A stretch of 64,000 bases of DNA. It comes from Mobula hypostoma. Its lineage: Eukaryota. The first letter of the stretch is position 1, and every line of letters begins with the position of its first letter. The notes under the pieces are model-generated. The model was not told where the DNA came from. It made no database searches and worked only from the letters and a program-made list of their open reading frames with translations. The translations under genes were made by a program, and so were the position numbers. This document shows positions 5,860 to 27,200 of the stretch, piece after piece. The DNA is taken from assembly GCF_963921235.1 (NCBI RefSeq), contig NC_086107.1, forward strand, positions 98,520,001 to 98,584,000. The letters are read 5' to 3'.

Positions 5860-6240
5860 CAGCGAGGACAGCTCGGCCCGCCTCCCTGACCCCGAATCCC
5901 GCCCGCAAACCCCGTGGTCCCCGAGCTCCGCACCCAGACACGCCGCTCGGAGCCCTGCCCCACTCCAGACCCCTCGGCCCAAACAACCGCCATCGCTCTT
6001 CTCGGATCCGTGGTCCCAGGCCACGCCCACTGGCCGGAAATTGTTTCCGTCGACGTATGACGGAGGACATACGTAATTCCGCTCAAATGGCGTCGCAGAG
6101 GAGACGGGGTCTTCAGAATGTGAGGAATTCGAGTGGATGGGAAACAGGGCAAGAGGCGTCGGCATGGCAGGGCATGCCAGGGGAGAGGGGAGGATGGAGG
6201 TGGGTGGGGAGAATCTGAGGGACAACGAGAGTAGCTGTTG
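5860..6240 (+). promoter_or_regulatory. CpG-island promoter of TAB1
   Basis: Local high CpG density around exon 1. Motifs: KLF/SP CCACGCCC (6021-6028), ETS-like CCGGAAAT (6034-6041) with inverted TTTCCG (6044-6049), and YY1-like AAATGGCG overlapping the start codon. Confidence 0.75.
6087..6119 (+). CDS. TAB1: TAB1 exon 1 (coding part) [11 protein letters not shown]
   Basis: ATG at 6087, donor GTGAGG at 6120; parallels human MAAQRRSLLQS. Missed by the ORF track. Confidence 0.9.
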
Positions 6241-9200
6241 ACATATCCCCCACCCTTCATCCTCCCCGAAACGTCAGCCCCTCCACCCACTTCCAACTCT
6301 CCCTTTCCTCCCTCACCCGTTACTCTTCTGCCTTTCATCGTCCCGTTCCCCTCTCCCCTCCCTCCCCCTCCCCCTACCCCTCCCCCTCCCCACCTCCCCC
6401 TCCCCCCTCCTCCCCCTCCTCCTCCCCTCCCCCTCCTCCTCCCCTCCCCCTCCTCCTCCTCCTCCCCCTCCTCCTCCTCCTCCCCTCACCCTCCCCCTCC
6501 TCCTCCTCCTCCCCTCCCCCTCCCCCTCCTCCCCCTCCCCCTCCTCCCCCTCCCCTCCTCCCCCTCCCCTCCTCCCCCTCCCCCCTCCCCTCCTCCCCCT
6601 CCCCCTCCCCCCTCCTCCCCCTCCCCCTCCCCCTCCTCCCCTCCCCCCTCCTCCTCCCCTCCCCTTCCTCCTCCCTCCCTTCCTCCCCTCCCCCCTCCCT
6701 CCCTTCCTCCCCTCCCCCCTCCCTCCCTTCCTCCCCTCCCCCCTCCCTCCCTTCCTCCCCCCTCCCTTCCTCCCCTCCCCCTCCCCCTTCCTCCCCTCCC
6801 CCATCCCCCTTCCTCCCCTCCCCCTCCCCCTCCCCTCCTCCCCCTCCCCCCTCCTCCCCCTCCCCCCTCCTCCCCCTCCCCCCTCCTCCCCCTCCTCCTC
6901 CTCCTCCCCCTCCTCCTCCTCCTCCCCCTCCTCCTCCTCCTCCCCCCCCTCCCCTCCTCCCCCTCCCCTCCTCCCCCTCCCCTCCTCCCCCTCCCTCCCT
7001 CCACTCCTCCCCCCCTCCCTCCCCTCCTCCCCCCTCCCCCCCTCCCCCCCTCCTCCCCCTCCCCCCCTCCTCCCCTCCCCCTCCCTCCCCTCCTCCTCCC
7101 CCTCCCTCCCCTCCTCCTCCCCCTCCCTCCCCTCCTCCTCCCCCCTCACTCCCCTCCTCCTCCCCCCTCACTCCCCTCCTCCTCCCCCCTCACTCCCCTC
7201 CTCCTCCCCCCTCCCCCTCCCCTCCTCCCCCCTCTCCCTCCCCTCCTCCCCCCTCTCCCTCCCCTCCTCCCCCCTTCCCCTCTCCTCCTCCCCCCTCCCC
7301 TCCTCCCCCTCCCCTTCCCCTCCTCCCCCTCCCCTTCCCCTCCTCCCCCTCCCCTTCCCCTCCTCCCCCTCCCCTTCCCCTCCTCCCCCTCCCCTTCTCC
7401 CCTCCTCCCCCCTTCTCCCCTCCCCTCCCCTTCCCCTCCCCTCCCCTCCTCCTACCCCCTCCCTCCCTCCCCTCCTCCTCCCCCCTCCCTCCCCTCCTCC
7501 TCCCCCCTCCCTCCCCTCCTCCTCCCCCCTCCCTCCCCTCCTCCTCCCCCCTCCCTCCCCTCCTCCTCCCCCTCCCTCCCCTCCTCCTCCCCCCTCCCTC
7601 CCCTCCTCCTCCCCCCTCCCTCCCCTCCTCCTCCCCCCTCCTCCCCCCTCCCTCCCCCCTCCTCCCCCCTCCCTCCCCTCCTCCTCCCCCTCCTCCCCCC
7701 TCCTCCCCCCTCCTCCCCCCTCCTCCCCCCTCCTCCCCCTCCCTCCCCTCCTCCTCCCCCCTCCCTCCCCTCCTCCTCCCCCCTCCCCCTTCCTCTCCTC
7801 CTCCCCTTCCTCTCCTCCTCCCCCTCCCCCTCCCCCTCCCCCTTCCCCTCCCCTCCCCCTCCCTCCCCCTTCCCCTCCCCTCCCCCTCCCTTCCCCTCCC
7901 CCTCCTCCTCCTCCCCCTCCCCCTCCTCCCCCCTCCCTCCCTCCCCTCCTCCCCCCTCCCTCCCTCCCTCCCCTCCTCCCCCTCTCCCTCCCTCCCCCCT
8001 CCCTCCCCTCCTCCTCCCCTCCCCCCTCCTCCCCCCCTCCTCAACCCCTCCTCCTCTCCTCCCCCTCCCCCTCCTCCCCCTCCCCCTCCTCCCCCTCCCC
8101 CCTCCTCCCCCTCCCCCCTCCTCCCCCCCTCCCCCTCCCCCTCCTCCCCCCTCCCCCTCCCCCTCCTCCCCCCTCCCTCCCCTCCTCCTCCCCCCTCCTC
8201 CCCCCTCCCTCCCCCCTCCCTCCCCTCCTCCTCCCTCCCTCCTCCCCCCTCCCTCCCCTCCCCCTTCCCCTCCCCTCCCCCTTCCCCTCCCCCTCCTCCT
8301 CCTCCCCCCTCCCCCTCCTCCCCCCTCCCTCCCTCCCTCCCTCCCCTCCTCCCCCTCTCCCTCCCTCCTCCCCTCCCCCCTCCTCCCCCCTCCTCAACCC
8401 CTCCTCCTCCCCCCTCCCTCCCCTCCTCCTCCCCCTCCCTCCCCTCCTCCTCCCCCCTCCTCTCCCCTCCTCCTCCCCCCTCCTCTCCCCTCCTCCTCCC
8501 CCCTCCTCTCCCCTCCTCCTCCCCCTCCCCCCTCCCCTCCTCCCCCCTCCCCTTCCCCTCCCCTCCTCCCCCCTCCCCTTCCCCTCCTCCCCCCTCCCCC
8601 TCCCCTCCTCCCCCCTCCCCCTCCCCTCCTCCCCCCTCCCCCTCCCCTCCTCCCCCCTCCCCTCCTCCCCCCTCCCCTTCCCCTCCTCCCCCCTCCCCTT
8701 CCCCTCCTCCCCCCTCCCCTTCCCCTCCTCCCCCCTCCCCTTCCCCTCCTCCTCCCTCCCCTCCCCTCCCCTCCCCTCCCCTCCCTCCTTCCTCCTTCCT
8801 CCTCCCTCCCCTCCCTCTCCCCGTCCCCGTTCCCCCTCTCCCCTTCCTCCTCTTCCTCCTCTTCCTGCTCTTCCTCCTCTTCCTCCCCTCTCCCCTTCCT
8901 CCCCTCTGCCCCCCATCTCCCCTTTCCCCCCCATCTTTCTGTCACTCTCGTCAATTCCTCCCCCCCCCCTTTGGTCGTGCGTGTGTTAGATTGCTGATCA
9001 CATTATGTTCAGACACTGAGGGTTAATTTCCCAAACTGCCCAGGAGCAGCTGAGTTGGACAGATGACCTCACAGTGTGCCACCTCTCGGGGATCGGTTAT
9101 GGCACAAATCGCATTTACCAGGCAGATGGAACCAGTATTGAGGCTCACAGCTTGGAGGATGGTTGGCTGAGGTTTCGGTGAGTTTTAACCCCGGGTCTAG

Positions 9201-21200: not shown

Positions 21201-24200
21201 GTGGTTTTTTTTTAATATATATTTTCCGGCTTTTGTTCTGTTCTGTGTGTATTTTAATTGAGCTACCTTTTTTTTTACTTTTTTACTGTTTTACAATTAG
21301 CTGATCCTTTTCATATTTATACCTTTTTTTTTAGGGAGCGTATACCGGAAGTCATGGGGGTAGTTTTAGCGCTTGCTTCTTTCTGGCGGGTCTGCTTTAG
21401 ATTTTGCCTTGGGGTCTTGGGGTGGGGGGTGGTGGGAGGGGCTTCACGTTTTAGTTTGTTTCTCTTTGGGCTATATACATTATTGAAGTACTGGTTGCGT
21501 CCTTTTTCCCGTATCTTTTGTATGTTCTGTTTCCTCTCCGGGTTTGTGGGTCGCGCCTATCGTCAATCCTCCTTGTTGTGGGTTGACTTTAGGATTTATG
21601 GAGTCTATTATTAATTTTGTCTCCTGGAATACTAATGGTCTTAATCATCCTATTAAAAGGAAAAAAGTTTTTAAAGTGTTCCCGAGACTTAAAGCACAAA
21701 TTTTATTTTTACAAGAGACCCATGTACGGAGGGGGGACAGACTACGTTTTTTCAAATTCTGGAAGGGACAACAATTTCATTCGAACTCCAATGCTAAGAT
21801 TCGAGGCGTCTCTATTTTTATAGATTCCTCAGTTACTTTTATACAACAGGATATTATCTCTGATCCGAATGGTAGATTTTTATTGGTTAGTGGTTTACTA
21901 TTTAATAAAAAAGTAGTTTTGGTTAATGTTTATGCTCCTAATATGGATTGTCCGGAATTTTATAAATCATTGTTTGATCAGTTTCCGAATTTGAACGAGT
22001 TTTCATTGATCTGGGGCGGAGATCTTAATACCTGTTTGTCTCCAGCTTTGGACCGTTCGGCTCCTTTACGGACTTTACCTAATAAATCTGCAAATCTGAT
22101 TAATTTTTTCCTTTCTGATTCTGGGTCGACGGACATTTGGCGTTTTCTGCATCCTCAGGAAAAAGATTTTTCCTTCTTTTCACATGTTCATCATTCCTAT
22201 TCAAGAATTGATTATTTTTTCATTGATTCTCGTCTTATTCCTTCAGTGATTAAATGTGATTATGATTCTATAACCATTTCGGATCATGCTCCACTTAAGC
22301 TTTCTATTAAAATTATGGCCAATATACCAAATAATAGACAATGGCGTTTTAATTCGCTGTTGCTTCAGGACTCGGACTTTGTTAATTTTATGAATGAACA
22401 GATTGAGCTTTTTTTTACAATTAACCATACAGAAGATATTTCGGTTAACACTCTTTGGGACACTTTTAAAGCCTATATTTGGGGTCAGATTATTTCGTAT
22501 TCTGTTGCTTTGAGGAAGAAACAGAAGCAGGAGGAGATGGCAATTGTGGACAAGATTAAAGAAATTGATAAGAAATATGTTATGGCTCCTTCTGAGGAGT
22601 TATACAAACAAAGAACTGAACTTCAAATGGAACACAGTTTACTACTCTCGTCCTCGATTGTAAACCAATTAAAGAAAACAAGAAGTGACTTTTATGTTCA
22701 CAGTGACAAAATTGGCAAGCTGCTGGCTAATCAATTGAAATCTAATTATGTTAAATCTCAAATCAATCAGATTTATAACCAAAATGATCGATTGATACTG
22801 GATCATGTGGGGATTAATCAAACCTTTTGTGATTTTTATTCTTCTTTATATCAGTCAGAGTCTCCTCGAGATTCTAAATATATGAATGATTTTTTAGATA
22901 AGTTAGACTTCCCTCAGATTTCAAAGGATATGTCTTCTTTATTAGATACTTCCATTACAATGGATGAGATTAAGAATGTTATTTTTTCTATGAATCTGGG
23001 GAAAGCTCCTGGCCCTGATGGGTTTACCGTTGAATTTTATAAATGTTTTGCTTCTTTATTGATTCCTTGGCTCGGTAGGGTTTTTGAGGCTTCTTTGAAA
23101 CTTGGTAAACTTCCTGAATCTTTTAATAGAGCATCAATTTCTCTAATACTAAAGATGGATAAAGACCCTGCTCAATGTGCATCTTATAGACCAATATCTT
23201 TATTAAATGTTGATTCTAAAGTTTTTTTCTAAGTTATTAGCAAATAGACTAGAAAAAGTACTTCCTTCTATTATTTCGGAAGACCAAACGGGTTTTATTA
23301 AAGGTCGTTACTCTTTTTATAATATTCGTACATTGTTAAATATCGTTTATACTCCCTCACAAAATGTTCCTGAGTGTGTTATTTCTTTAGATGCCGAGAA
23401 AGCTTTTGATAGAGTAGAATGGCCTTATTTATTTAAGGTGCTTGAACTGTTCAATTTTAGCTTGAAATTTATATCCTGGATTAAACTGTTATATCACTCC
23501 CCTGTAGCCTCGGTTCGTACTAACTCTTTAAACTCACCTTTTTTTCCTCTCTTTCGTGGTACTCGACAAGGCTGTCCTCTTAGTCCCCTATTATTTGATA
23601 TTGCATTAGAACCTCTTGCAATTGCTATTCGAGAATCTTCAAATATTACTGGGATAACTCGGGGATTAAAGTCCCATAAATTATCACTCTATGCTGATGA
23701 TTTACTTTTATATATTTCTAATCCTGAGAGATCCATTCCTGCTGTTTTAGAGTTATTAGCACAATTTGGTCTTTTCTCAGGTTATAAATTAAATCTTAGT
23801 AAGAGTGAACTTTTTCCGATTAATAAACATCTTCCCTTATATTATAAATTTCCATTTAAATTGATTAATAATTACTTTTCATATCTTGGGATTAAAATTA
23901 CTTGTAAATACAAAGATTTATTTAAGACTAACTTTTTACCATTAATAGACCATATTACTCAACTTTCATCTAAATGGTTTCCCTTATATTTAACTTTGAT
24001 TGGTTGTATTAATGCGGTTAAGATGTTTTTTTTTGCCAAAATTTTTATATGTGTTTCAGGCATTACCAATTTTCGTTCCAAAATCTTTTTTTGATAAAGT
24101 TGACTCAATATTTTCTTCATTTATTTGGCAGAATAAGAATCCGAGACTGGGTAAAATACATTTACAGAAAGCTAAGAGAGATGGAGGTTTAGCATTACCT

Positions 24201-27200
24201 AACTTTAGATTCTATTATTGGGCTATTAATATTCGACATATGAAATTTTGGTTACTTGACCAGGACATACTATCTATTCCTAAATGGGTAGCATTGGAAT
24301 TACAATCTGTTCAGGGTTATACATTTGGTTCTATTTTAGGCTCCTCTCTCCCTTTTGATTCGAAACGTCTTAAGCAGGTCTCTAACCCGATAGTTAAATA
24401 TGCTTTGCGCATTTGGTTTCAATTCAGAAAATTTTTTGATCTTAATCAATTCGGGTTAGCGATTCCTATTTTAGGTAACATATTTTTTCCTCCCTCTTTT
24501 ACGGATCGCGCTTTTCAAACTTGGAAGACTAAGGGTATTTTACGGTTTTTGGATTTATTTTTAGATGGTTCCCTTATGTCTTTTGAACAATTATCTAATA
24601 AATATAACTTATCAAGAATACATTTTTTTAGATATTTACAAGTTAGAAATTTCCTAAGTACTATACTTTCTTCCTTTCCAATGCTTCCTCCTACATATAT
24701 TTTAGATTCGATAATTAACCTTAATCCATGTCAGAAAGGTGCATCGGCTATGATTTATAATATTATTATGAAACTTAGGAAAGCTCCATTTGATAAGATT
24801 AGGGTAGATTGGGAACAGGAATTGGGGCTTACCATTTCTGTGGATGATTGGGGGCAGATTTTACAATTAGTTAATACTTCCTCTATTTGTGCTAAACATT
24901 CCCTAATTCAATTTAAAGTGGTTCATAGAGCACATATGTCCAAAGATAAGTTAGCACGTTTTTACTCGCATATTAATCCTTTCTGTGATAGATGTTCGGG
25001 GCAGATAGCCTCTTTAACTCATATGTTTTGGTCTTGCCCTACTTTGGAAACTTTTTGGAGAGATATTTTCAATATTATTTCTAAGGTATTAAATATAGAT
25101 ATCTCTCCTCACCCTATTACTGCTATCTTTGGACTACCTAAAATTTCTAGTAATCTTTCCCCTTCAGCCCGTAGAATGATTGCATTTCTTACTTTAATGG
25201 CGAAAAGATGTATTTTACAACATTGGAAAGAGCTTAATGCTCCAACTACCTTTTTTTGGTTTTCTCAGACGATTTTATGTTTGAATTTGGAGAAAATTAG
25301 AAGTAACCTTTATGATTCTTCATTTAAATTTGAACAGATTTGGGGACCTTTTATTCGATATTTTCATTTAATGTAATATTTACCCTTCTTGTTTTTTTTC
25401 ACTGTTTTTAATGGAGGTCGGGATTGAGGACGTGATTTTAAGTTTAACTCTGTTTGGTTTCAAGTTAGCCCATTGCTTTGCCTTGCTTTTAGTTAGCCGC
25501 ACGGTGGGTTTTTTTTTGGGGGGTTTTTTTTTTCTTTTTTTTCCATTGATATATATAAAATTTAGTATACTATTATGTTATCTTGGTTTCTTATGTTTAA
25601 ATTACATTGTTTGTAGTATTTTCTTTTTGGTATTGATATCTTTTGGAATTTTATTATACTTTAACATTGTATTAATGTTTATATGGCTTACCTTTTTTGT
25701 ATACTTACTCAATAAAAAGATTTAAAAAGAAAAGAAAAGGAGAAGCACTGAACAAAATGGGCTGAGTTGACTCACTGCTTGACAGAAATAGCAGCCCTTG
25801 GGTATAGATTTCCCTTGTGTCGAATCAAGTGTAGGCTTTCACGGCGGGAGGGATCAGACTAATTTGCCTGTGTGCTTAGAGCATTTCTTTGTGTGGACTG
25901 GGGACTGCTGAAAGATCTGTGTGACTGAAAGAGAGAGAGAAAAAACTGTGAGAGAGTTTGCTACAGAGCTTTTCCCATGGAATTACATGCATTTTTCATT
26001 ATTTTCCTGCACTAACACCAACTGTCCAGATGACCAGGTGAGACCACCAAGACATTCCCATCCTCCAAACTTCTGTCCTTCTGTCTTCTTGCTTCATCTA
26101 CAGTCAGGCATTTAATAAAAAAGGGTGTATGGGGTGTCAGGGAGGGGTAGCACCTCTGGTGGGGGAACATGTCGCGTCCTTTTCAGGGTGGTTAGTCCAC
26201 CTTCGGTCCCCACCTGGCACTCAGCTCTCACCTGTGGCTCCCCGTAGCTGTTTGCATGCGACAGCGGCCACACCCCGGGCAACGGCTTCGACAAGCCGGC
26301 TAAACCAGGTGAGGGTAGCCGACGGGTCTCAAACCCTCAGTGAGATAGGGAGTTGTCTATCCCAGCATGTGAAGACAGACTCCGGGGGATTGAGCGGACG
26401 AGACCGATGGAAGGTCCAACGGTCAAGAAGGCGGTCTCTGCAAGCGTTGTGGAACATGTAGAGCACGACAAGACACAGAAGACGTCCTGGTCATCCACTG
26501 CGCCTAGTCCCATCTCCAGCCGTCTGGACTCTGTCTTGCCACTGGACCCAGATGGGAATTGAGAAGAGAAAGTGAGGCTGACGCTGCGCAACTCTCCCTC
26601 ACTTAAATCCAAATCAAGCGCTAGTCTTCACACCATCATTATGGTGTTGAGGTCCTCTTCGACGTCAACGATGGACGAACCAAAAAAAAAGGTTATCTCT
26701 AGCAAGGAATATATTTGGTTCACTCATGCCCCATATGAGCCACCACTTACAAACTCACTTTAGTACATTCAGAATATATTTGTATCCCTTTCTCGCTAAT
26801 GCAATTATATAGATTTTCCCTAAATGCACCGAATCCATATGCCTTGAGACCTACATTAAAGGCTGGATAATCTTGAGTTGTTTTTCTCTGGGATGGTGGA
26901 GGCAGATGAGAGATCTGATAGTTTTATAAGATTGAGAGGCGTAGGTAGAATAGACGGGGAGTATCTGTTTCCCAAGGTTGAATTGTCTCAAACCAGCGGG
27001 CGTGCATTGAAGGTGAGAGGAGGTAAGTTCAGGGGGAATGTGAGGTAAGTTTTTTACTCAGTCATGGATGCCTGGAATGTGCTGCCTGGTCTGATGGTAG
27101 AGGCAAATATATTAGAGGTTTTTAAGAGACATTTGAATAGACGCATAGATGTGAGGAAGATGGAGAGATATGGACATTGTGTAGGTGGAAAGGATTAGTG

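What the first reader, a model, noticed from the sequence alone, without database searches (positions are those of the whole stretch)
26246..26266. Extra hairpin inserted between L3 and P3 of the ribozyme: possible new HDV-like structural variant
Seen: after the canonical 7-nt L3 there is a 21-nt insert, A-GCUGU-(UUGCAUGCG)-ACAGC-G, before the P3 3' strand. Established: genomic HDV has a single extruded nucleotide (U27) here, and large natural insertions are best known in J1/2 and P4. Inference: a helix grafted at this position would be an uncommon architecture and would be missed by descriptors that limit L3 to 7-8 nt. Competing pairings are also visible (UGUGGC 26233-38/GCCACA 26267-72; UGAGGGU 26310-16/ACCCUCA 26333-39) and could slow or switch cleavage.
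Basis: partly seen in the sequence, partly recalled or inferred. Interest (0 to 1): 0.75.

Follow-up and report, generated by a model that had tools for sequence, protein, structure and literature searches.

The report
HDV-like ribozyme with extra L3 hairpin
The 21-base hairpin is real and sits inside the catalytic loop of a hepatitis-delta-type self-cutting RNA at the head of a short jumping element copied thousands of times in a cartilaginous-fish genome; every relative found keeps it, an unusual build for this ribozyme class whose cutting is still untested.

Summary
Window 26246-26266 reads A-GCUGU-UUGCAUGCG-ACAGC-G and lies between a canonical 7-nt L3 (UCCCCGU) and the P3 3' strand of a complete HDV-like fold (26122/3-26315).

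The fold heads a 558-nt non-autonomous retroposon (26123-26680) that has target-site duplications and (AAC)n-type tails.

The insert is not private to this copy:
- 1061 genomic copies match an exact core pattern, and all 100 listed carry the insert.
- Two older sister families (B and C) and a diverged RNA contig from another organism also keep a hairpin there.
- Family C has a 19-nt version with the same 4-bp stem and a different loop.
- No relative without the insert was found.

Evidence that the ribozyme is real:
- P4 shows compensatory changes at three pairs between families.
- The L3 U, CC and G and the J4/2 C are conserved.
- Genomic copies, and one RNA contig that abuts sequencing adapter, start exactly at the predicted cleavage site.

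Weak points:
- The hairpin stem never covaries.
- Self-cleavage is untested.
- No autonomous partner was found, so the RTE attribution is unsupported.
- The key HDV-like survey papers could not be read.

Verdict: probably a new structural variant of a known ribozyme class.

The parts
26123..26680 (+). 558-nt non-autonomous (SINE-like) retroposon copy. It sits directly after the A-rich 3' end of an L1/Tx1-like LINE and is flanked by A-runs.
   Evidence: All of the 30 best genomic matches share these ends at 93-96% identity over the element. Exact TSDs of 7 nt or more were found in 30 of 47 copies examined, with (AAC)n or (AACC)n tails.
26123..26128 (+). P1 5' strand, upstream copy. The family consensus is GGGGUGU starting one base earlier. 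This copy has A at 26122, so only 6 bp are possible here. The predicted cleavage site is 5' of the first G.
   Evidence: At 26122, 43 of 57 aligned copies have G. An extra G beyond the TSD occurs in 10 of 30 copies with a TSD. The X18 RNA contig has adapter plus G abutting 26123.
26131..26137 (+). Second, identical copy of the P1 5' strand (GGGGUGU). It is an alternative partner for 26270-76. The tandem duplication is conserved in families main, B and C.
   Evidence: One of the 30 unselected loci (L051) starts exactly here.
26138..26224 (+). Long J1/2 domain (87 nt). It is the most variable part between families.
   Evidence: 19 of the 36 fixed main-versus-B differences fall at 26162-26217. 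The GGUGGGG/CCCCACC helix visible in the main family is not kept in B.
26225..26234 (+). P2 5' strand; pairs with 26306-26315.
   Evidence: 10 bp including one G.U. 95.3% of cells are paired in 62 distinct copies. Sequence is invariant between families.
26236..26238 (+). P3 5' strand (GGC); pairs with 26267-26269.
   Evidence: 98.9% of cells are paired.
26239..26245 (+). L3, UCCCCGU. C26240 and C26241 form P1.1 with G26278 and G26277.
   Evidence: Families B and C have UCCAAGU. The U, CC and G are kept and only positions 4-5 change.
26246..26266 (+). The finding: a 21-nt insert, A-GCUGU-UUGCAUGCG-ACAGC-G. The stem is 26247-51 with 26261-65.
26267..26276 (+). P3 3' strand (GCC, 26267-69) followed by the P1 3' strand (ACACCCC, 26270-76).
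   Evidence: Invariant in all three families.
26277..26282 (+). P1.1 3' strand (GG, 26277-78) and J1.1/4 (GCAA).
   Evidence: The stretch from P1.1 up to and including the first P4 base (26277-26283) reads GGGCAAC in main, (A/G)GUACAC in B and GGUAAAC in C.
26283..26298 (+). P4 hairpin, CGGCUU-CGAC-AAGCCG.
   Evidence: Family B has CCGCUU...AGGUGG and family C has CCGUCU-CGGC-AGACGG. Both sides change at pairs 84-97, 86-95 and 87-94. In alignment A1 the 84-97 pair is GC in 43 rows and CG in 13.
26299..26305 (+). J4/2, GCUAAAC, with the presumed catalytic C at 26300.
   Evidence: GGCUAA in main and B, GGCCAA in C; the C is kept. This is the part that matched RF02682 weakly.
26306..26315 (+). 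P2 3' strand.

Best explanation
Window 26122/3-26315 encodes an HDV-like (nested double-pseudoknot) self-cleaving ribozyme of about 194 nt. It forms the head of a roughly 550-nt non-autonomous retroposon.

Inferred mechanism. The element has no evident Pol III promoter and carries a T4 run at 26180-83, so it is probably transcribed as part of longer transcripts. The ribozyme then folds: P1 forms between the element's first 7 nt and ACACCCC 26270-76, together with P1.1, P2, P3 and P4, with C26300 in J4/2 as the catalytic base. It cuts immediately 5' of the first G. The released RNA is copied into new sites by an unidentified LINE that recognises its 3' end, which leaves TSDs and (AAC)n-type tails.

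The 21-nt hairpin branches from the junction between L3 and the P3 3' strand. From memory, this is where genomic HDV has one extruded base. The hairpin is an ancestral, retained peripheral helix of this ribozyme lineage and not damage to this copy. Its most likely role is structural: it is tolerated, or it stabilises P3/L3.

Shown here: the sequence anatomy, the family-wide presence of the insert, the 5' ends, and P4 covariation.
Inferred: cleavage itself, its site, and any role of the hairpin.
For: 1. The full HDV-like descriptor is met only here in the window. It is met in 1 of 50,000 region shuffles and in none of 40 whole-window shuffles.

2. Three families share the head. Between them, P4 changes on both sides at three pairs while staying paired. 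L3 keeps its U, CC and G and varies only at positions 4-5. The J4/2 C is kept.

3. The 5' ends match the predicted cleavage site.
- 26 of the 30 loci taken in genome order start within 2 nt of 26123.
- 43 of 57 aligned copies have G at 26122, giving GGGGUGU.
- 10 of 30 copies with a TSD show that G lying beyond the TSD.

4. An RNA-seq contig of another organism (X18, depth 11.5, 25 other letters and 3 gaps over 228 nt) has a loose 5' end of sequencing-adapter sequence plus G, joined directly to 26123. That points to many fragments ending exactly at the predicted G1.

5. The insert is retained everywhere I could look.
- All 100 listed of 1061 exact-core matches carry it.
- Family B has the same 21 nt. 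Only 26259 differs, in 7 of 14 copies, and that is a CpG site.
- Family C has a 19-nt version with stem GCUG/CAGC kept and the loop changed.
- No family with a longer insert exists under the same anchors: 24 sporadic hits.
- No family lacking the insert exists under two sets of anchors.

6. With L3 held unpaired, the proposed hairpin is the minimum-energy fold of the P3-to-P3' segment in main, B and C copies. In the B and C copies it is also the unconstrained minimum.

7. There are precedents in print. R2 ribozymes span about 184 nt, and part of the extended R2 ribozyme sequence binds the R2 protein (PMC6765202, passages).
Against: - No cleavage assay exists and none can be run here.
- The hairpin stem shows no covariation. 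It is invariant between families. Subfamily changes are C-to-U only: 26248 and 26265, which keep G.U pairs. A double U-A to C-G change occurs in only 4 copies genome-wide.
- Its conservation is not clearly above background. Main and B differ at 36 of 216 columns, so 0-1 changes in 21 nt has roughly a 3-13% chance by my own estimate.
- P1, P2 and P3 also never vary, so only P4 gives covariation support for the fold.
- In the main family an alternative hairpin, CGUAGC/GCAUGCG, uses the L3 bases and is more stable in isolation: -9.3 against -4.9 kcal/mol.
- G1 pairs with C, not with U as in HDV (recalled).
- Most family B copies have A instead of the first P1.1 G (10 of 14).
- A defined 5' end could also come from an internal Pol II promoter.
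- The X18 RNA evidence is one contig from one study.
- The descriptor was written after seeing the site.
Confidence: 0.65

Rival explanations
1. The fold resembles HDV but is catalytically dead or irrelevant, for example because 21 nt inserted into the active-site loop is not tolerated. On this reading the sharp 5' end comes from transcription initiation at an internal Pol II promoter, as in several LINEs, and the conserved block 26218-26276 is conserved as promoter DNA.
For: - No activity data exist.
- P1, P2, P3 and the hairpin stem are invariant rather than covarying. That is equally compatible with constraint at the DNA level.
- Rfam models do not recognise the site.
- The loop contains TTTGCAT, which resembles an octamer motif (my recollection).
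Against: - P4 keeps pairing through changes on both sides at three pairs. That is hard to explain at the DNA level.
- The positions conserved in L3 and J4/2 are the ones I recall as conserved in HDV-like ribozymes.
- P1 starts exactly at the element's first base.
- Family C has lost TTTGCAT and GCATGC but kept the stem.
- The descriptor statistics argue against chance.
Confidence: 0.15
2. The ribozyme is active and the hairpin, together with nearby alternative pairings, forms a conformational switch that delays or gates cleavage. The alternatives are extended P3 UGUGGC/GCCACA, the main-family CGUAGC/GCAUGCG hairpin, and 26310-16 with 26333-39.
For: - All the pairings exist in the sequence.
- The non-pseudoknot minimum-energy folds prefer alternatives that use L3 or extend P3.
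- The two identical P1 5' strands offer two registers.
Against: - The CGUAGC/GCAUGCG alternative is lost in families B and C, where L3 is UCCAAGU.
- The 26310-16 with 26333-39 helix loses a pair in B.
- The extended P3 uses only invariant bases, so it is untested.
- Nothing in the data measures kinetics.
Confidence: 0.1
3. The hairpin is a neutral passenger. It was a one-off insertion in the common ancestor of these families at a solvent-exposed position, and it persists only because too little time has passed for it to change.
For: - There is no covariation.
- The stem's conservation is statistically marginal (and my estimate).
- The hairpin alone is not better than shuffles.
Against: - Over the same divergence P4, J1/2, J1.1/4 and two L3 positions were remodelled.
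- In family C the loop changed and shrank by 2 nt while the 4-bp stem stayed.
- No master lineage lost the insert.
Confidence: 0.25

Closest known systems
HDV-like ribozymes at the 5' end of non-LTR retrotransposons: R2, R4, Baggins, RTE and L1Tc. Sources: Eickbush 2013, PMC3774820, sections and passages read; the review PMC6765202, passages read; Ruminski 2011, abstract recalled only because the paper is not held.
   Same: - Nested double-pseudoknot fold at the very 5' end of the element, with the cut at the element's first base.
- A long J1/2, giving a ribozyme close to 190 nt as in R2.
- Presumed release from co-transcripts.
- Conserved L3 and J4/2 bases, and a variable P4.
   Different: - A hairpin of 19-21 nt lies between L3 and the P3 3' strand. 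In the R2 survey the variation described is in P1, P2, P4 and J1/4 and in the spacing of L3 bases in one wasp (PMC3774820, section 16); no helix is reported there.
- The P1 5' strand is tandemly duplicated.
- The host element is a short non-coding retroposon of a cartilaginous fish, not an autonomous LINE.
Non-autonomous, ribozyme-headed derivatives: R2 SIDEs (PMC3414825, search listing and abstract only) and NARTc with L1TcRz (PMC3383444, search listing and abstract only).
   Same: A short element without coding capacity that carries an HDV-like ribozyme at its 5' end and depends on a LINE for copying.
   Different: Those elements are clear deletion derivatives of a known parent LINE. Here I found no parent sharing either the 5' or the 3' module. 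Families main and B share positions 1-379 but have different 3' modules, which looks more like SINE-style tail swapping.
Genomic HDV ribozyme (numbering and structure recalled; not tested here).
   Same: - L3 UCCNCGN, a P1.1 of two C-G pairs, GGGCAAC after P1, and the catalytic C in J4/2.
- The insert occupies the place of the single extra, extruded L3 base of the genomic form.
   Different: - 21 nt instead of 1 nt at that place.
- G1 pairs with C rather than forming a G.U wobble.
- J1/2 is 87-96 nt.

Membership tests
HDV-like self-cleaving ribozymes | Nested double pseudoknot: P1, P1.1, P2, P3 and P4 in the canonical order. | tested here: met
   All helices can be drawn. A descriptor search finds only this site, with 1 of 50,000 shuffles. 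95.1% of cells are paired over 62 distinct copies, against 37-47% when partners are slid. Covariation is present only in P4.
HDV-like self-cleaving ribozymes | Conserved core bases: the L3 U, the two C of P1.1, the L3 G, and the catalytic C in J4/2. The list is recalled. PMC4870747 states only that five non-contiguous nucleotides are conserved. | tested here: met
   U26239, C26240, C26241, G26244 and C26300 are kept in the consensus of all three families, while L3 positions 4-5 vary.
HDV-like self-cleaving ribozymes | A short L3 (7-8 nt) running directly into the P3 3' strand. | tested here: not met
   A 21-nt insert (19 nt in family C) separates L3 from the P3 3' strand in every copy seen. 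This is the variant feature.
HDV-like self-cleaving ribozymes | Site-specific self-cleavage 5' of G1, giving a 5'-OH. | not testable with these tools
   Only indirect evidence is available: genomic 5' ends at G1 and one RNA contig ending at G1 against adapter sequence.
HDV-like self-cleaving ribozymes | Match to a curated Rfam model of the class. | tested here: not met
   There was no hit at gathering score. The best match was RF02682 at 13.2 bits against a cut-off of 44. That is expected if the models cannot span the long J1/2 and the L3 insert.
   The element is 558 nt with no ORF. The one copy followed by an EN-RT ORF (L033/L061) is a retroposon copy interrupted by an unrelated 5'-truncated LINE with CR1/L2-like motifs. 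Short repeat tails fit what I recall of RTE 3' ends, but no partner was found.
LINE-dependent non-autonomous retroposon (SINE-like) | Defined ends, target-site duplications, a 3' tail, high copy number and no coding capacity. | tested here: met
   It differs from classical SINEs in having no tRNA, 7SL or 5S head. The T4 run at 26180-83 would stop Pol III (recalled rule).

The most novel reading that the evidence does not exclude
The L3-P3 hairpin is a functional module grafted onto the active-site loop of an HDV-like ribozyme. It could be a docking site for the partner LINE's protein, by analogy with the R2 protein binding part of the extended R2 ribozyme. It could instead be a fold-gating element acting together with the conserved tandem pair of identical P1 strands. 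On this reading a vertebrate retroposon lineage uses a self-cleaving ribozyme, rather than a Pol III promoter, as its head. The HDV active-site loop would also tolerate a whole helix at a position that standard search descriptors forbid, so similar ribozymes would be systematically missed.
Probability: 0.2. Interest if true: 0.8.

Novelty: new variant of a known kind. Interest (0 to 1): 0.6.

Why it matters
HDV-like ribozymes are mostly found with structure descriptors that fix L3 at 7-8 nt. A lineage with thousands of copies that carries a helix inside L3 would show that this limit hides real members, and that the active-site loop is more tolerant than assumed.

It would also add a vertebrate case of a short retroposon whose 5' end is made by a ribozyme rather than by a Pol III promoter.

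The system is easy to test. Natural variants exist with 21-nt and 19-nt hairpins, different L3 and P4 sequences, and two candidate P1 strands.

Tried and rejected
- **Parent LINE idea, rejected.** I first took L033/L061 for the autonomous parent (ribozyme head followed by an EN-RT ORF). One search shows the LINE's own 3' end followed by the rest of the retroposon. One search shows that the junction is unique in the genome (1 of 25 hits; the others are retroposon variants). Searches show that intact copies of that LINE have an ORF1 upstream and no ribozyme head at that point.
- **Partner LINE search.** A pattern asking for the 3' module behind a different upstream sequence gave 14 sporadic hits. 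No partner was found.
- **Rfam RF02682 over the whole genome.** 137,875 candidates, 62 scored, no match. This is uninformative.
- **Relatives without the insert.** A strict pattern gave 1 hit, a decayed main-family copy. A wider pattern gave family C plus sporadic deletions.
- **Relatives with longer inserts.** 24 sporadic hits.
- **A compensatory hairpin subfamily.** Only 4 copies.
- **J1/2 helix GGUGGGG/CCCCACC.** It is not kept in family B, which has two uncompensated G-to-A changes, so I do not claim it.
- **Kissing-loop idea.** The palindromic GCAUGC loop is lost in family C.
- **Metagenome scans.** The first gave 0 hits. The second gave one contig, L103, with the head but without the ribozyme core.
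- **X19 and X20 RNA contigs.** X19 covers only internal parts of the element (26220-26370 and 26438-26588). The X20 contigs run into unrelated flanks at 26123 and 26125. Neither says anything about processing.
- **Earlier notes of this scan.** None touch this element.
- **Papers not held.** Webb 2009, Ruminski 2011, and Webb and Luptak 2011.
Full report
**What is in the window**

Around it a full HDV-like fold can be drawn:
- P1: GGGGUGU with ACACCCC 26270-76.
- P1.1: C26240 and C26241 with G26278 and G26277.
- P2: 26225-34 with 26306-15.
- P3: GGC with GCC.
- P4: CGGCUU-CGAC-AAGCCG, 26283-98.
- J4/2: GCUAAAC, with C26300 as the presumed catalytic base.

Rfam does not call the site. In E-value mode there is only a 13.2-bit partial match to the F. 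prausnitzii HDV model over GGGCAACGG..CCGGCUAA.

I wrote a descriptor after seeing the site, allowing a J1/2 of up to 120 nt and an L3 insert of 0-30 nt. It hits only this place in the 64 kb on both strands. It hits 1 of 50,000 dinucleotide shuffles of the region and nothing in 40 shuffles of the whole window.

The 21-mer alone is not a better hairpin than shuffles: z = -1.39, with 21 of 200 shuffles folding at least as well.

**What the ribozyme belongs to**

The window lies in a 3.48-Gb genome. Earlier notes of this scan call it a cartilaginous fish, which I did not test.

The stretch 26123-26680 is one copy of a 558-nt repeat. All of the 30 best genomic matches share both ends at 93-96% identity over the element. 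An exact-core pattern has 1061 matches against 0 for the reversed control. Copies end in ...GAUGGACGAAC followed by (AAC)n or (AACC)n. Exact target-site duplications of 7 nt or more were found in 30 of 47 copies examined.

There is no ORF. A T4 run at 26180-83 argues against Pol III transcription (recalled rule).

The window copy sits between A-runs, directly behind the A-rich end of an L1/Tx1-like LINE whose ORF runs 23207-25376.

I first mistook locus L033/L061 for the autonomous parent. It is in fact a retroposon copy interrupted by an unrelated 5'-truncated LINE, and the junction is unique in the genome. No element shares the 3' module behind a different 5' part.

**Where the RNA starts**

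In the 30 loci taken in genome order by the pattern search, which are not selected for their 5' ends:
- 26 start within 2 nt of 26123.
- 1 starts 4 nt in.
- 1 (L051) starts exactly at the second GGGGUGU.
- 2 are truncated further.

In 57 aligned copies, position 26122 is G in 43, giving GGGGUGUAUGGGGUGU. In 10 of 30 copies with a TSD that G lies beyond the TSD, so it belongs to the element.

The predicted cleavage site of the upstream P1 register therefore coincides with the element's first base. The window copy itself has A at 26122, so its upstream P1 has 6 pairs and its second P1 copy (26131-37) has 7.

An RNA-seq contig of another organism (run X18, depth 11.5, 25 other letters and 3 gaps over 228 nt) carries a loose 5' end of sequencing-adapter sequence plus G, joined directly to 26123. 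Adapter next to a fixed position means that many short fragments ended there. This fits a natural RNA 5' end at G1. It is one contig from one study, and it cannot distinguish cleavage from initiation.

**Is the insert private to this copy?**

No.
- All 100 listed rows carry it. Variation in 57 copies is mostly CpG decay.
- Contigs of organism E (run X11) revealed a second family, which I then found in the genome: family B, 189 hits within 2 mismatches. It is 70-78% identical to the main family over positions 1-379 and has a different 3' module.
- A wider pattern revealed family C. By my count it accounts for about 80 of the 100 listed rows out of 180 hits. I fetched eight copies, chosen because they showed the commonest insert form.
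- The stretch is held by sequencing runs of at least six coded organisms.

Comparison of the three families:

| Part | Main | B | C |
|---|---|---|---|
| Both P1 5' copies, P2, P3, P1 3' strand | same | same | same |
| L3 | UCCCCGU | UCCAAGU | UCCAAGU |
| 26277-26283 (P1.1 GG, J1.1/4, first P4 base) | GGGCAAC | (A/G)GUACAC | GGUAAAC |
| P4 | CGGCUU/AAGCCG | CCGCUU/AGGUGG | CCGUCU/AGACGG |
| J4/2 | GCUAAA | GCUAAA | GCCAAA |
| Insert | 21 nt | the same 21 nt | 19 nt |

- P4 changes on both sides at pairs 84-97, 86-95 and 87-94. In alignment A1 the 84-97 pair is GC in 43 rows and CG in 13.
- The family B insert differs from main only at 26259, in 7 of 14 copies, at a CpG site.
- The family C insert is A-GCUG-UAGCACGCG-CAGC-G. 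The stem is kept, the loop is changed and 2 nt shorter, and the GCAUGC palindrome is gone.
- The X18 contig keeps the 21-nt form with 26265 C to U, which keeps a G.U pair.
- No family lacks the insert or has a longer one under the anchors I could use.

**How strong is the evidence for the hairpin itself?**

It is moderate.

For it:
- It is kept in every lineage while P4, J1/2, J1.1/4 and two L3 positions were rebuilt.
- In family C the loop changed while the stem stayed.
- With L3 held unpaired, it is the minimum-energy fold of the P3-to-P3' segment in main, B and C copies. It is also the unconstrained minimum in the B and C copies tested.

Against it:
- There are no compensatory changes. One cell out of 62 rows has a double change, and only 4 copies genome-wide carry the U-A to C-G double change.
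- Main and B differ at 36 of 216 columns. By my estimate, 0-1 changes in 21 nt is only marginally unusual, at about 3-13%.
- In the main family an alternative hairpin that uses L3 bases is more stable in isolation. It is not conserved in B or C.
- Dead copies cannot show selection, so the per-copy pair counts (96.7% paired in the hairpin) say little.

**Mechanism**

The most likely reading, at about 0.65, is an active HDV-like ribozyme in the source copies. It frees the retroposon RNA from longer transcripts by cutting 5' of G1. The hairpin is an ancestral peripheral helix branching from the spot where, as I recall, genomic HDV has one extruded base.

The first P1.1 base is A in most family B copies. 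This need not kill activity: the C. briggsae HDV ribozyme has a non-Watson-Crick P1.1 pair and is fast (PMC13635239, passage).

The conserved tandem pair of identical P1 strands is unexplained. The genomic 5' ends favour the upstream register.

The rival readings are a dead fold with a promoter-defined 5' end, a conformational switch, and a neutral passenger. They are set out in their own section.

**Comparison with what is known, and novelty**

HDV-like ribozymes at the 5' ends of R2, R4, Baggins, RTE and L1Tc, and of their short derivatives, are established (PMC6765202 and PMC3774820, passages; PMC3414825 and PMC3383444, listings). What differs here is the helix inside L3, the duplicated P1 strand, and the host element.

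In the R2 survey the described variation is in P1, P2, P4 and J1/4 and in L3 spacing in one wasp (PMC3774820, section 16). No hairpin in L3 is mentioned there.

My full-text searches found nothing on such an insert or on cartilaginous-fish HDV-like ribozymes. However, the primary surveys are not held, and Repbase and Dfam are not available here.

I rate this as a new variant of a known kind, with interest 0.6.

Noticed in passing
window 26122-26137; same in loci of families B and C (e.g. L081, L096): The P1 5' strand is tandemly duplicated (GGGGUGU-AU-GGGGUGU), and the duplication is conserved in all three families. One of the 30 unselected copies (L051) starts at the second unit. The function is unknown. 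It could provide two cleavage registers.
   Followed up: partly
L024, L042, L050, L053 (retroposon position ~515-517 onward): Four of the 60 loci switch, at the same point near the retroposon's 3' end, into a tRNA-like SINE head that has a box-A-like TGGCGTAGTGG. This is either a composite subfamily or an insertion hotspot.
   Followed up: no
L061 (G000:C1:2863000-2870720, minus strand); L093; L094: An abundant, young LINE with CR1/L2-like motifs. Its ORF1 has a GTND (esterase-like) motif. The best 68 other matches to its EN-RT ORF are 93-95% identical to the query, and several copies have open frames of about 984 aa. One 5'-truncated copy interrupts a retroposon copy.
   Followed up: partly
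window 23207-25376 (+), with an A-rich end at ~26113-26122: An L1/Tx1-like LINE remnant (RT plus a C-terminal Cys motif). Its A-rich 3' end is the insertion site of the ribozyme-headed retroposon.
   Followed up: no
L103 (metagenome contig, minus strand 427-150): A relative of the element's head, with the same duplicated 5' end and a similar J1/2. Its stretch between L3 and P2' is replaced by about 32 unrelated bases, so it has no P1 3' strand, no P4 and no J4/2. Its P2 shows U-A changed to C-G. It is a single copy of unknown origin.
   Followed up: partly
window 26501/26502 (retroposon position 379/380): This is a module boundary. Families main and B share positions 1-379 and then differ. Many contigs of organism E diverge at the same point (67 contigs). 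It looks like SINE-style exchange of 3' modules.
   Followed up: partly
window 6234-9000 approx.: A large array of short tandem repeats. The repeat finder reported 230 overlapping 300-nt copies spaced 8-15 nt apart.
   Followed up: no
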